Positions 44,373 through 47,596 of a DNA stretch of 47,596 nucleotides are shown in pieces; positions within the stretch are counted from its first letter, which is position 1, and each line of letters starts with the position of its first letter. The DNA comes from Candidatus Omnitrophota bacterium. Lineage in GTDB: Bacteria; Omnitrophota; Omnitrophia; Omnitrophales; Aquincolibacteriaceae. Where the stretch lies: the NCBI GenBank assembly GCA_043803685.1, contig JAZDJU010000032.1:1-47596 (forward strand). Reading direction: 5' to 3'. Below the pieces are notes generated by a model, which was not told where the DNA came from, made no database searches, and saw only the letters and a list, made by a program, of their open reading frames with translations. The position numbers and the translations under genes are program-made.

Positions 44373-46220
44373 ATGGCCCAGAAGCATTCCCGATTTCCCC
44401 CCGATAGCGTTGAAGAGAACGGCAATCTGATCCAGGTTTTTCAGAACCGCGCCAGTGTATTCAAATCCAAGAAAGCTCTTTTCTATAAGGTCCAAGGCGA
44501 TTTTACCGGAAGCTACAGCTGGCATCACTGGATGAAGATCGTCCGGGAGACAGCCATGGCGCTTCATCTGCTAGGCATCCGCAAGGGCGATCATGTGGGG
44601 ATCCTTTCGGAAAATCGCCCGGAGTGGACTTTTGCTGATCTCGCGATCCTGAGCCTTGGGGGAGTGACCGTACCGATCTATCCCACGGCGTCCCTGGAGG
44701 ATATCCGCTACATCATCGATCATGCCGATCTGAAGATGATCTTTGTTTCCACAGAGGAGCAATACCGCAAGATCGAAGGCTTCCGATCCAAGTTCATTCC
44801 CGCGGGGATCATTCTCTTCACTCCTGGAGAGTCCGGAGAACTCCAGGATCTGAAAACCTTCCGTGAAATGGGGCGCGATTATGCTTTGGAGCATCCCGAT
44901 CTCTATGACTGGTGCGTCAAGAATGTCGGGCCGGATGATCTTGCGACTATCATTTACACTTCAGGGACGACCGGCGCGCCCAAGGGCGTGATGTTGACGC
45001 ACCGGAACTTCATTGCCAATTATCAAGGAGCTTTTCAGCGCATCCAGATCGATGAGCGTGATTCGGTCTTGTCCTTTCTTCCTCTGAGCCACGTTTTCGA
45101 ACATCTGGCAGGCTATTATTATCAGGCCGCTTACGGGGTCTCGATCGCCTATGCCGAAAGCTTTGCGACCGTTGCGGAAGATATTAAAAAAGTAAAGCCG
45201 ACCCTTGTGGTGGCCGTGCCCCGGTTCTATGAAAAAACCTACGCGCGGATCCTGGAAGAAGTTCAGGCCGCGCCTTCCTGGAAACAGCGGCTCTTCCATT
45301 GGGCGGTCCGGATCGGGACGAGGGCCGCACAGCTCAGGATGCGCGGACAGTCTGTTCCCGTTCGTCTTGCTCTTTATAACTGGATAGCGCAACGATCTGT
45401 TTTTGACAAGCTTCGAAGGGCCATGGGCGGCAGGCTCCGGTTTTTCATCTCAGGCGGCGCGCCGCTTTCAAGAGAGCTGGCGCAGTTCTTTTATGCCGCA
45501 GGGATCATGATCCTTGAGGGGTACGGATTGACTGAGACAGCGCCCGTGATCGCCGTCAATGCCCTGGATGATTTCAAATTCGGGACCGTCGGAAAGCCGA
45601 TCCCCGGGATCCGTGTGAAGATCGCCGAAGACGGCGAGATCCTGACCCAGGGGCCCTGTTTGATGAAGGGCTACTACAATGACCCTCACGCGACCCATGA
45701 ATGCATCAAGGACGGCTGGCTTCACACGGGGGACATCGGACATTTCGATGATGAAGGTTTTCTTCATATCACGGACCGTAAGAAGGATATTATCGTTACC
45801 GCCGGGGGGAAGAATGTTTCGCCACAGAATATCGAGGGCCGCATTCTTGCGGATCCCTTTTTCCTTCAAGCTATTGTGTTGGGCGATAAACGGCCCTACC
45901 TCTGCGCGCTGCTTGTGCCGCATAAACAGGAAATGCTCCATTTTGCGGAACAGCGCCGCATCAGCGATCTTCCTTACGAAAAGCTTTTGGAGGATGCGGG
46001 TGTTCAGGCCTGGGTCGGAGAGAAGCTTCAGAAGTGTATGGGAGGTTTGGCGGGATATGAGACCGTACGGGCTTTTATCCTTCTGCCGCATGAGTTCACG
46101 CTTGTGGCTGGAGAGATGACGCCCACCTTGAAGATCAAACGCCGTGTGGTGATGAAGGAATACCAGAAGGCGATCGATGAGCTTTATCGGAACACCGATC
46201 ACGAGAGGGGAAAACGGTAA
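44373..46220 (+). CDS. fadD: Long-chain fatty acid--CoA ligase (AMP-binding)
   Basis: IIYTSGTTGAPKGV, LPLSHVFE, EGYGLTE, TGDIG, DRKKD, TPTLK. Confidence 0.92.
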   Translation: MAQKHSRFPPDSVEENGNLIQVFQNRASVFKSKKALFYKVQGDFTGSYSWHHWMKIVRETAMALHLLGIRKGDHVGILSENRPEWTFADLAILSLGGVTVPIYPTASLEDIRYIIDHADLKMIFVSTEEQYRKIEGFRSKFIPAGIILFTPGESGELQDLKTFREMGRDYALEHPDLYDWCVKNVGPDDLATIIYTSGTTGAPKGVMLTHRNFIANYQGAFQRIQIDERDSVLSFLPLSHVFEHLAGYYYQAAYGVSIAYAESFATVAEDIKKVKPTLVVAVPRFYEKTYARILEEVQAAPSWKQRLFHWAVRIGTRAAQLRMRGQSVPVRLALYNWIAQRSVFDKLRRAMGGRLRFFISGGAPLSRELAQFFYAAGIMILEGYGLTETAPVIAVNALDDFKFGTVGKPIPGIRVKIAEDGEILTQGPCLMKGYYNDPHATHECIKDGWLHTGDIGHFDDEGFLHITDRKKDIIVTAGGKNVSPQNIEGRILADPFFLQAIVLGDKRPYLCALLVPHKQEMLHFAEQRRISDLPYEKLLEDAGVQAWVGEKLQKCMGGLAGYETVRAFILLPHEFTLVAGEMTPTLKIKRRVVMKEYQKAIDELYRNTDHERGKR

Positions 46221-46317
46221 TCGATGGTCTCAGGTCTAGCCTGAGGGGGTGTTCTTTTTTCGTTTTATTCATGTTCCGTTAACATAGTACCAAGATCCAA
46301 AACGAGGAATAAGTTTC

Positions 46318-47202
46318 ATGCCGTATCCGAGTGCGAGCGCAGATCCCGGCCGCGAAGCGTTGAAGCCGCCGGTGGGGTGGATCCAGGAACATTTTAAAGG
46401 ACAGGATGGGAAAAATATCTTCTACCGTTTCTATCCCGTCTCCGGAGCGCGTCATACGGTCATCATGCTCCACGGCTACGGGGAGCACTCGGGCCGTTAC
46501 GAGAAGTTCCCGGCGAAAATGGGCCGTCTCTCAGCTCAGTTCGCCGTGATGGATTTCCGGGGGATGGGGCGGTCCGAAGGTCCCCGGGGAGACGTTGCTT
46601 CCTTTGAGGATTATTTAAACGATGTCACGGCTTTTATCGAACATCTCCGCCGGAAGCATTCGATCCCTTCGAAATTCATTCTGTTCGGTCACAGCCTTGG
46701 AGGGTTGGTGGCCGCGCACTGGTCGATGAAGCATCCGGCCCCGGTCAAGCTTTTGATCCTTTCCGCGCCTTTCATGGGGCTCCGGTTTTCATCGTTGATC
46801 GTTCCCTTAAACCGGTTGGTGCATTCCTTTTCGGCGGGTTTTGTTTACAAGAACCCGGTCCGGTCGCGTTCGCTGAGCCATGAGCCGCGCGAGATCGCCG
46901 TTTATCGGAAAGATTCGCTGATCCTTCGCCATATCTCCGCGCGGTTGGTCGATGAGATCGCGCGTCGCACAGAGATGCTACGGAAGCTCCCGATCCTGTC
47001 GGTGCCGTTCCCTGTGCATTTGCTTGTGGCGGGGGATGAGCGCATCGTCGATCCTGATCGAACGAGGAAATTCTTTGAACGGCTGGTAGCCCCACGCAAA
47101 GAGCGGACGGTCTTTGAAGGCTTTTTTCACGAGATATTCAATGAACAGGACCAGCAGCGAGCCTTCAATGTTTTGAAGACAATTATCGAAGATTGTGTAT
47201 AA
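46318..47202 (+). CDS. Alpha/beta hydrolase, lysophospholipase/monoacylglycerol lipase type
   Basis: HGYGEHSGRY, DFRGMGRS, GHSLGG, DERIV, HEIFNE. Confidence 0.9.
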   Translation: MPYPSASADPGREALKPPVGWIQEHFKGQDGKNIFYRFYPVSGARHTVIMLHGYGEHSGRYEKFPAKMGRLSAQFAVMDFRGMGRSEGPRGDVASFEDYLNDVTAFIEHLRRKHSIPSKFILFGHSLGGLVAAHWSMKHPAPVKLLILSAPFMGLRFSSLIVPLNRLVHSFSAGFVYKNPVRSRSLSHEPREIAVYRKDSLILRHISARLVDEIARRTEMLRKLPILSVPFPVHLLVAGDERIVDPDRTRKFFERLVAPRKERTVFEGFFHEIFNEQDQQRAFNVLKTIIEDCV

Positions 47203-47241: not shown

Positions 47242-47314
47242 GGGCCTGTAGCTCAGCTGGTAGAGCGCTGCATTCGCATTGCAGAGGCCAGGAGTTCGAC
47301 TCTCCTCAGGTCCA
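47242..47314 (+). tRNA. tRNA-Ala(CGC), CCA not encoded
   Basis: Acceptor GGGCCTG/CAGGTCC with G3:U70, D-stem GCTC/GAGC, anticodon arm CTGCA-TTCGCAT-TGCAG, T-arm AGGAG-TTCGACT-CTCCT, discriminator A. TATAAT upstream at 47198. Confidence 0.97.
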
Positions 47315-47394
47315 TTTCTCTTTCAAGAAATTTAAGGTTAAATGGGCCAGTCCTGCCGACCATTTAGAAATGAATGAAAGGCAAGGGCAGGTCC

Positions 47395-47433
47395 AAAATA
47401 TCCCGGTAGCTTTTGCTATCGGGATATTTTTTT
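47395..47433 (+). terminator. Intrinsic terminator (possibly bidirectional)
   Basis: AAAATATCCCGGTAGC-TTTT-GCTATCGGGATATTTT followed by more T. Confidence 0.85.
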
Positions 47434-47436
47434 ATT

Positions 47437-47596
47437 GGGGGAGAGGCTCCGCCGGAGGACGGATCCGTCCACGATGTTTGGCGGAGAAGGGAGCGCTGCG
47501 TTGAAACATGACAAGAAGTCATGTTTCAAGTGCGGGTGGCCTACCGGAGTCCGCTTATTTTGCGGACAAGGAGCCGACTCTCCTCAGGTCCATTTC
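47437..47596 (+). repeat. tRNA-Ala-derived multi-hairpin element ending in a 22-bp copy of the tRNA 3' end
   Basis: CGACTCTCCTCAGGTCCATTTC occurs at both 47297-47318 and 47575-47596; GAGCGCTGC occurs at both 47263 and 47491; nested palindromes lie between. Confidence 0.75.

What the first reader, a model, noticed from the sequence alone, without database searches (positions are those of the whole stretch)
47437..47596. Expanded pseudo-tRNA: tRNA-Ala scaffold with loops replaced by long hairpins
Seen, in tRNA order: GCTC (47446), then an insert containing CTCCGCC/GGCGGAG and the perfect palindrome GGACGGATCCGTCC, then GAGCGCTGC (exact tRNA D-stem/anticodon-stem sequence). A perfect 12-bp hairpin TTGAAACATGAC-AAGAA-GTCATGTTTCAA replaces the anticodon loop. 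TGCGGGTGGCC follows (tRNA: TGCAGAGGCC), then a GTCCGC/GCGGAC hairpin in the variable region, then AGGAG-CCGACT-CTCCT-CAGGTCCATTTC. The 5' acceptor strand is missing; instead GGGGAGA-GGCTCC can pair with GGAGCC...TCTCCTC and close the whole unit. Inference: a tRNA-derived structured element, either a SINE/MITE-like repeat that targets tRNA 3' ends or a tRNA-mimic ncRNA. I recognise no named family.
Basis: partly seen in the sequence, partly recalled or inferred. Interest (0 to 1): 0.75.

Follow-up and report, generated by a model that had tools for sequence, protein, structure and literature searches.

The report
tRNA-linked repeat with mirrored arms
The stretch is not an expanded tRNA but one copy of a gene-less, folded repeat that follows many different tRNA genes across Omnitrophota bacteria and carries both a direct and a mirror copy of its neighbour tRNA's tail; it is built like the long-unexplained "tRNA-linked repeats" of E. 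coli and likely spreads as folded single-stranded DNA.

Summary
The motifs are real and fold well (z −5.2), but this is not a tRNA-Ala scaffold. It is a composite. The main unit has a mirror copy of the tRNA T-arm, a conserved two-hairpin core, and a direct copy of the tRNA from C56 to base 73. A separate 38-bp dispersed hairpin is lodged in the mirror arm. The core occurs 9 times in this genome, always behind a tRNA end, and in 51 of 121 phylum genomes. In 118 units behind 33 tRNA types only the arms follow the neighbouring tRNA; the 'D-stem/anticodon' motifs do not. E. coli tRNA-linked repeats (TLRs, function unknown) show the same layout when checked here, but no sequence homology and a different junction. 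DNA-type GNA triloops (58/124 against 9 shuffled), few G-T pairs, empty versus filled sites and exact tandem copies suggest a small element moving as folded ssDNA. No mover was found, and there is no sign of recent hopping between tRNA types. The scan noted this family (e1-991483) and this layout in other lineages before. Verdict: new variant of a known kind.

The parts
47242..47314 (+). Intact tRNA-Ala(CGC) gene, the host site; ends at discriminator A73, no encoded CCA
   Evidence: ARAGORN and Rfam RF00005 68.7 bits
47315..47395 (+). Separate dispersed module between tRNA and unit; ends in an 8-nt copy of the tRNA's last bases (47388-47395)
   Evidence: related copies at several contigs of G000 and in relatives
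47395..47433 (+). Terminator-like hairpin plus T run; 5' spacer of the repeat unit at this tRNA
   Evidence: the same hairpin heads the unit in G004, G010, G011, G012
47438..47447 (+). Left (mirror) arm, outer part: reverse complement of the tRNA T-loop/T-stem 3' strand; 11 of 13 bases match when read together with 47486-47488
   Evidence: sequence; family-wide tracking 5.9/7 against 4.0 null
47448..47485 (+). Nested 38-bp dispersed hairpin (holds the 14-bp palindrome), inserted into the left arm without target duplication; not part of the unit
   Evidence: 9 strict copies in G000 in unrelated contexts; absent from the G012 copy of the unit
47486..47574 (+). Conserved core: purine linker, hairpin P2 (47493-47533, with the 12-bp hairpin 47501-47529), linker, hairpin P3 (47539-47574, with bulged C and A and the distal hairpin 47549-47567)
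   Evidence: covariation; model R1 57 bits, E 3.4e-11
47575..47592 (+). Right arm: exact copy of tRNA positions C56-A73 (18 nt)
47593..47596 (+). Start of the next module; the contig ends here and probably continues in the reverse complement of C59
   Evidence: 23-nt shared stretch; gene order in G007

Best explanation
This is one copy of an Omnitrophota-wide family of gene-less tRNA-linked repeats (mirror T-arm, conserved two-hairpin core, direct copy of the tRNA from C56 to base 73) that likely moves as a folded single-stranded DNA circle. Shown: the layout, the pairing of mirror arm with tail copy (about 8-10 bp) into a three-way junction, arms matched to whichever tRNA lies upstream, filled and empty alleles, exact tandem copies, and a second small hairpin nested in this copy. 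Inferred: the repeat unit (tail + spacer + mirror arm + core) would excise from the sense strand and fold. A trans-acting single-strand recombinase (a RAYT/Y1 HUH enzyme is the best candidate on hand; a tyrosine recombinase is possible) would recognise the invariant junction. The mirror arm would swap from the unit's own tail to the identical tail of the tRNA gene, gaining two more pairs with T54-T55. Joining anywhere within positions 56-73 would leave the tRNA intact and push the old 3' end downstream. Retargeting to a new tRNA type appears rare; most copies seem inherited or exchanged at the same tRNA.
For: Arms track the host: right arm 16.9/18 against 10.6 null, 86 of 118 perfect; left arm 5.9/7 against 4.0; 33 tRNA types. 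Fixed junction at C56. Structure 93.8% paired, 24 of 32 pairs with double changes, 0/500 shuffles; slid controls 37-41%. K:M pair G-C 92, T-A 30, other 2. DNA signature on the sense strand: GNA triloops 58 of 124 against 9.2 shuffled (max 17), bottom strand 2; GNRA 8 against 5.6; UNCG 0. GNA mini-hairpins are described as exceptionally stable in DNA, and a related RNA version as much less so (PMC13037366, passages). G-T in P2 34 of 1728 against 25 of 528 in tRNA stems. Unit present at tRNA-Ala(CGC) in 5 of 14 genomes; filled alleles keep the old terminator behind the distal tail. Exact tandem copies of the whole unit. Same layout in E. coli TLRs. Y1 genes in 16 of 20 genus genomes.
Against: No mover is linked to any unit. 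Integron integrase 0 of 20 over cut-off. G031, G015 and G006 have units but no Y1 hit. Cores at different tRNAs of one genome are no closer (0.711) than between genomes (0.720), and the nearest foreign core shares the tRNA type in 15 of 41 (2.7 expected), so there is no sign of recent hopping between tRNAs. An 18-bp duplication is unlike IS200/IS605 insertion (recalled). Tandem copies and losses can also arise by slippage between 18-nt repeats. No circle was seen; the X3 junction fits a tandem array equally well. One E. coli TLR, RrB, is a transcribed, processed RNA. The units are related, so the counts overstate independence.
Confidence: 0.55

Rival explanations
1. It is a functional RNA: the pre-tRNA trailer is cut out as a small RNA. 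The tail copy is a processing signal and the mirror arm keeps the spare tail from mis-pairing with the tRNA's 5' half.
For: The folded strand is the transcribed one. E. coli RrA/B/F TLRs are transcribed, processed and bind Hfq and CsrA, and the authors propose the repeat is an RNase E signal (PMC8144298). Strong covariation.
Against: Loops are DNA-type GNA triloops, not GNRA or UNCG. G-U pairs are rarer than in tRNA stems. Presence is patchy: 5 of 14 genomes at this tRNA, 51 of 121 genomes. This copy lies behind a terminator-like site and its left arm is broken by an insert. No Rfam match.
Confidence: 0.2
2. Only the two-hairpin core is (or was) mobile. It lands at T55|C56 of a tRNA gene; the mirror arm is a fold-back or template-switch scar of that event, and the gene is rescued by duplicating its 3' end. 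Afterwards the unit is passive, gained in tandem or lost by slippage.
For: The core is joined to the sense strand at C56 and to the antisense sequence just after position 54. In some Thr and Pro units the mirror reaches base 73. An identical core sits on two different spacers in L234. Cores cluster by tRNA locus.
Against: Mirror pairing stays near-perfect at 56-62 (115-124 of 124; partly set by my filter) and falls to 50 of 124 or fewer from 66, which looks like selection on a short duplex rather than even decay. The outer mirror signal is not significant overall (19 against 10.8, null max 22). No free core without arms was found in G000.
Confidence: 0.17
3. It is the leftover att site of a conventional tRNA-targeting genomic island or prophage (tyrosine integrase).
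For: A duplicated tRNA 3' end is the classic sign of such integration (established knowledge). G000 has several island-type integrases beside tRNA ends.
Against: One core serves 33 tRNA types. Most spacers are under 100 nt with no genes (median 68). Real island fragments in these genomes start near the anticodon and carry the unit as a passenger. The only 2 hits in viral contigs are chance matches inside ORFs.
Confidence: 0.06
4. It is an expanded pseudo-tRNA-Ala or tRNA mimic whose loops were replaced by hairpins.
For: The short matches to tRNA-Ala exist in this copy. Real expanded duplicates exist in relatives.
Against: The matches do not persist in other Ala units and occur behind other tRNAs. 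The pairing register is not a cloverleaf. GCTC is made by the nested insert. No tRNA hit by Rfam or ARAGORN at the unit.
Confidence: 0.02

Closest known systems
E. coli tRNA-linked repeats (TLRs): tyrT/tyrV repeats and RtT (Rfam RF00391), lys and arg units, rrA/B/F
   Same: Gene-less unit directly behind a tRNA, ending in an 18-19 bp copy of that gene's 3' end, one to several in tandem (PMC8144298). In K-12 the tyrT/V and argV units also have a mirror T-arm (positions 59/61-66/68); the lys units have an imperfect one, seen by eye. All have a hairpin core with GNA-type loops.
   Different: No sequence homology: RF00391 0 of 20 genus genomes (E. coli control rings), none in 16 unit loci, and my profiles miss the E. 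coli units. The tail starts at C56 and mostly ends at 73, against 58/59-76. The mirror covers T54-T55, which the tail copy lacks. It is used at 33 or more tRNA types.
IS200/IS605 elements (IS608) and their gene-less derivatives; REP/REPIN with RAYT
   Same: Hairpin-folded single strand with target choice by base pairing (PMC5934647 abstract). Y1 genes are present in most genus genomes.
   Different: An 18-bp direct repeat and an 8-10-bp mirror arm instead of a 4-base guide. Strict tRNA targeting. No transposase is linked to any unit.
Integron attC cassettes
   Same: Imperfect hairpin whose outer stem is completed by the sequence that follows the join; bulged bases; head-to-tail arrays.
   Different: No IntI (0 of 20). 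The join is after TT, not G|TT. The conserved part is the inner junction. Units carry no cargo of their own.
att sites of tRNA-targeting islands and prophages
   Same: 3' tRNA duplication that restores the gene; a terminator-like hairpin in some spacers (15 of 118).
   Different: No integrase, one core for many tRNAs, and a mirror arm.

Membership tests
E. coli TLR kind | Lies directly behind a tRNA or rRNA gene | tested here: met
   118 of 153 pattern candidates within 400 nt of a tRNA; of the other 35, by eye 17 chance, 11 behind displaced tRNA ends, 4 at contig edges or gaps, 3 with no tRNA end within 300 nt; 9 of 9 in G000
E. coli TLR kind | Last 18-19 bp identical to the upstream gene's 3' end | tested here: met
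   18 nt C56-A73 here; 86 of 118 perfect 18/18
E. coli TLR kind | Mirror T-arm plus hairpin core (seen here in K-12, not stated in the paper read) | tested here: met
RtT / RF00391 sequence family | Match to the Rfam model or sequence homology | tested here: not met
E. coli TLR kind | Transcribed and processed to a small RNA (shown for RrA/B/F) | not testable with these tools
   no RNA run holds the locus; RNA run X14 covered only the tRNA and up to 47346
IS200/IS605-derived or REP-type element | Folds as single-stranded DNA on one strand | tested here: inconclusive
   GNA triloop excess and low G-T on the sense strand; indirect
IS200/IS605-derived or REP-type element | No target duplication | tested here: not met
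   18-bp direct repeat; the rule itself is recalled
IS200/IS605-derived or REP-type element | Cognate Y1 transposase | tested here: inconclusive
   Y1 in 16 of 20 genomes; none of the 3 in G000 is on a unit-bearing contig; three genomes with units lack a hit
Integron cassette (attC) | Integron integrase in the genome | tested here: not met
   TIGR02249 over cut-off in 0 of 20
Integron cassette (attC) | RYYYAAC / G|TTRRRY core at the join | tested here: not met
   the join is core|CRA and the left arm ends in GAA; the attC motif is recalled
Pseudo-tRNA / tRNA mimic | D and anticodon stems of the parent tRNA kept in register | tested here: not met

The most novel reading that the evidence does not exclude
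TLR-type repeats are an unrecognised class of self-programmed, protein-less mobile DNAs. Each unit carries its own DNA guide (the mirror arm) and repair template (the tail copy), so that one trans-acting single-strand recombinase can place the same core behind any tRNA gene without breaking it. The Omnitrophota family, with one core at 33 or more tRNA types, is the clearest case, and E. coli TLRs are its lab-accessible counterpart.
Probability: 0.3. Interest if true: 0.8.

Novelty: new variant of a known kind. Interest (0 to 1): 0.5.

Why it matters
TLRs have been known in E. coli since 1978 and were described in 2021 as having no known function (PMC8144298). A second, unrelated sequence family with the same layout, sampled across a phylum and 33 tRNA types, separates what is fixed (junction, C56 join, short mirror duplex, DNA-type loops) from what follows the host tRNA. 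That turns an old puzzle into a testable claim: TLRs are single-stranded DNA mobile units with a built-in guide. If true, they would be a natural, programmable way to integrate safely at tRNA genes. In practice it also explains short 'att-like' tRNA duplications that would otherwise be mis-called as island scars or pseudo-tRNAs.

Tried and rejected
Rfam at gathering level and at E up to 10: only the tRNA; no RtT in 16 unit loci. Expanded tRNA-Ala: rejected. Viral carriage: 2 pattern hits in IMG/VR, both chance. Integron integrase: none. Cargo cassettes: genes between paired units (Fic, GT87, methyltransferase; one further ORF in L222, not scanned) belong to other elements, because the second unit follows either a long displaced tRNA fragment or a foreign att-like sequence; so the unit is not shown to capture genes. 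CCA asymmetry between gene and distal copy: none (7 against 5). A second, outer mirror box up to base 73: not significant. Sequencing runs: none holds the locus (best share 0.14); four runs laid gave only relatives, so nothing on expression. Williams 2002 and 2003 on tRNA/tmRNA integration sites were not held and are not used as evidence. A mobilome preprint saw raised coverage at tyrT/rttR but ascribed RNA-gene signals to RNA/DNA hybrids, and its library would not see ssDNA (10.1101/2024.07.17.603846, passages): uninformative here.

Full report
Observation. The window is the whole contig G000:C32. tRNA-Ala(CGC) lies at 47242-47314. The 160 nt fold at −77.1 kcal/mol as RNA (z −5.20) and −38.1 as DNA (z −4.52), 0 of 200 shuffles as good. 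Rfam finds only the tRNA. The unit is real although it touches the contig end: G004 and G012 carry it at the same tRNA, and one contig of run X3 reads core, tail and spacer. No run holds this exact locus. The reverse complement of C59 probably continues it: it shares 23 nt after 65 unrelated nt, and in G007 the genes upstream match C32 and those downstream match C59.

Anatomy. The stretch is composite. (a) 47448-47485 is a 38-bp hairpin with 9 strict copies in G000, in unrelated contexts and without target duplication. It splits the left arm and creates the 'GCTC'; the G012 copy lacks both. (b) Without it, 47438-47447 plus 47486-47488 is the reverse complement of the tRNA from T54 into the T-stem and acceptor (11 of 13). 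(c) 47486-47574 is a conserved core of two hairpins. (d) 47575-47592 copies the tRNA from C56 to A73. Upstream lie a terminator-like hairpin that heads the same unit in four relatives, and a different dispersed module (47315-47395).

The family. A profile and a covariance model each find exactly 9 copies in G000, all behind a tRNA or a displaced tRNA 3' fragment: Ala, Val, Phe twice, Leu, Arg, Ser, Pro twice. The core is in 19 of 20 genus genomes by DNA search. Model R1 finds it in 51 of 121 phylum genomes and 36 of 91 genera. Of 157 candidates, 153 had a P2 hairpin and 118 lay within 400 nt of a same-strand tRNA of 33 types, median gap 68 nt. Of the other 35, by eye 17 are chance, 11 follow displaced tRNA ends, 4 lie at contig edges or gaps, and 3 have no tRNA end within 300 nt. 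In 29 further model hits, 24 had the tail copy upstream; 3 of the 5 misses were at contig edges. The right arm matches the neighbouring tRNA at 16.9 of 18 (86 of 118 perfect) against 10.6 for other tRNAs. The left arm matches 5.9 of 7 against 4.0 (300 shuffles, maxima 11.1 and 4.3). The identity starts at C56 and most often ends at base 73 (16 of 52).

Structure. On 52 short-form units (52 of 56 selected from 124) a three-way junction is 93.8% paired; 24 of 32 pairs change on both sides; 0 of 500 shuffles reach this; slid controls give 37-41% (I derived the structure from these sequences, and they are related). Mirror arm and tail pair at 115-124 of 124 for positions 56-62, 101 at 63, 72-76 at 64-65 and 50 or fewer from 66 (the filter asked for 6 of 8 pairs at 56-63). 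In P3 one pair between a bulged C and a bulged A is G-C in 92, T-A in 30, other in 2. P3 carries a GNA triloop closed by two pairs in 58 of 124 units (shuffled 9.2, max 17; antisense strand 2); GNRA 8 against 5.6; UNCG 0. The window's own P3 has a 7-nt loop instead. GCGNAGC mini-hairpins are described as exceptionally stable in DNA, and the RNA form of GCGAAAGC as much less so (PMC13037366, passages). G-T pairs make up 34 of 1728 cells in P2 (distal pairs were chosen to maximise Watson-Crick pairing) against 25 of 528 in tRNA stems. This points, indirectly, to a sense-strand DNA fold.

Dynamics. At tRNA-Ala(CGC) the unit is present in 5 of 14 genomes. In G014 the tRNA runs straight into a terminator, and filled alleles keep such a terminator behind the distal tail. 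Whole units (tail + spacer + arm + core) occur as exact or near-exact tandem copies. Against frequent retargeting: core identity is 0.711 between tRNA types within a genome, 0.720 between genomes and types, and 0.749 for the same type between genomes; the nearest foreign core shares the tail type in 15 of 41 (2.7 expected; 52 units, crude tail clustering). Genes between paired units come from other elements.

Mover. None identified. Integron integrase 0 of 20 over cut-off. G000 has XerC/D-like and island-type tyrosine recombinases (my reading; one of 671 aa stands beside a Pro unit as part of an island end) and 3 Y1 genes, none on a unit-bearing contig. Y1 is found in 16 of 20 genus genomes. 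G013 (97% complete) lacks both Y1 and units, but G031, G015 and G006 have units without a Y1 hit. Viral contigs hold no true copy of the exact pattern.

Mechanism. Shown: layout, arm tracking, fixed join, covarying fold, filled and empty sites, tandem copies, nested insert. Inferred (0.55): the unit leaves as a sense-strand circle, folds, and is joined within 56-73 of a tRNA gene by a trans-acting single-strand recombinase. The mirror arm acts as guide, since it pairs two bases further with the gene (T54-T55) than with its own tail, and the tail copy restores the gene. Rivals: functional trailer RNA (0.2), core-only insertion with a fold-back scar (0.17), island remnant (0.06), pseudo-tRNA (0.02).

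Comparison. An earlier scan note pointed to E. coli TLRs. PMC8144298 (abstract, introduction, keyword passages and first part of the discussion read; supplements not seen) describes 22 TLRs at ten loci, with 18-19 bp identical to the upstream gene's 3' end and no known function; the rRNA-operon ones are processed RNAs that bind Hfq and CsrA. The words 'inverted' and 'mobile' do not occur in its main text. In K-12 the tyrT/V and argV units have a mirror of positions 59/61-66/68; lys units have an imperfect one, seen by eye. All have hairpins with GNA-type loops and a tail from 58/59. So the layout is the same, but there is no homology and the register differs. IS608 chooses targets by base pairing and can be reprogrammed (PMC5934647, abstract only): it is the model for how this may work, not its family. 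Searches found no paper on this family or on mirror arms in TLRs; Rudd 1999, Egan and Landy 1978 and Williams 2002/2003 were not seen and may say more.

Verdict. New variant of a known kind. The scan noted this family once before in another genome, and the same layout in archaea, Clostridia, spirochaetes and candidate phyla (unchecked notes). Interest 0.5.

Noticed in passing
L003 about 1700-1980; also behind tRNA-Ala(CGC) in L005, L008, L010, L012, L013, L015: True expanded pseudo-tRNA-Ala: a near-full duplicate of the gene with hairpins inserted in the D, anticodon, variable and T loops.
   Followed up: partly
window 47490 and 47535: Like-with-like purine covariation on both sides of P2: G·G in 113, A·A in 8, A·G in 1 of 122 units. 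It could be a non-canonical pair, a 3-nt direct repeat around P2, or a mini-triplex; unexplained.
   Followed up: partly
window 47448-47485: 38-bp hairpin family with 9 strict copies in G000, several lodged inside other repeats; related copies sit in the T-loop of tRNA duplicates in relatives.
   Followed up: partly
window 47315-47395: Second module type that ends in the tRNA's last 8 nt and has a rough mirror of them at 47343; related modules are dispersed in G000 and stacked behind this tRNA in varying order in relatives.
   Followed up: partly
L194:3161-3888 (G000:C59, probable continuation of the window): HEPN-type (NTase_sub_bind) plus nucleotidyltransferase gene pair, a likely toxin-antitoxin module, inserted behind the array; absent at this site in G007.
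   Followed up: partly
G000:C100:20307-20424 and L145: Chimeric units: the mirror arm matches the upstream tRNA but the right arm is a different tRNA-like tail ending in CCA; possible traces of exchange between tRNA types.
   Followed up: no
L027, L031, L042, L047, L051: tRNA-Lys(TTT) subfamily is shifted by one base: the mirror reaches G53 and the tail starts at T55.
   Followed up: no
spacers of Leu, Lys, Ser, Gly units, e.g. L034, L052, L055, L057: About 80-nt spacers share a further bulged hairpin module across tRNA types.
   Followed up: no
L234: Three identical 90-bp cores: two in an exact 170-bp tandem behind tRNA-His, one 2.9 kb away on a different spacer behind a displaced fragment.
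   Followed up: no
G000:C45:5132-7147 (L195): Unusually long (671 aa) tyrosine recombinase next to a displaced tRNA-Pro fragment and a unit.
   Followed up: no
G000:C109 and C1: Two similar XerD-like genes; may reflect the bin's 6.6% contamination.
   Followed up: no
window 44373-47202: The genes before the tRNA are an AMP-binding enzyme and an alpha/beta hydrolase; no link to the repeat.
   Followed up: yes
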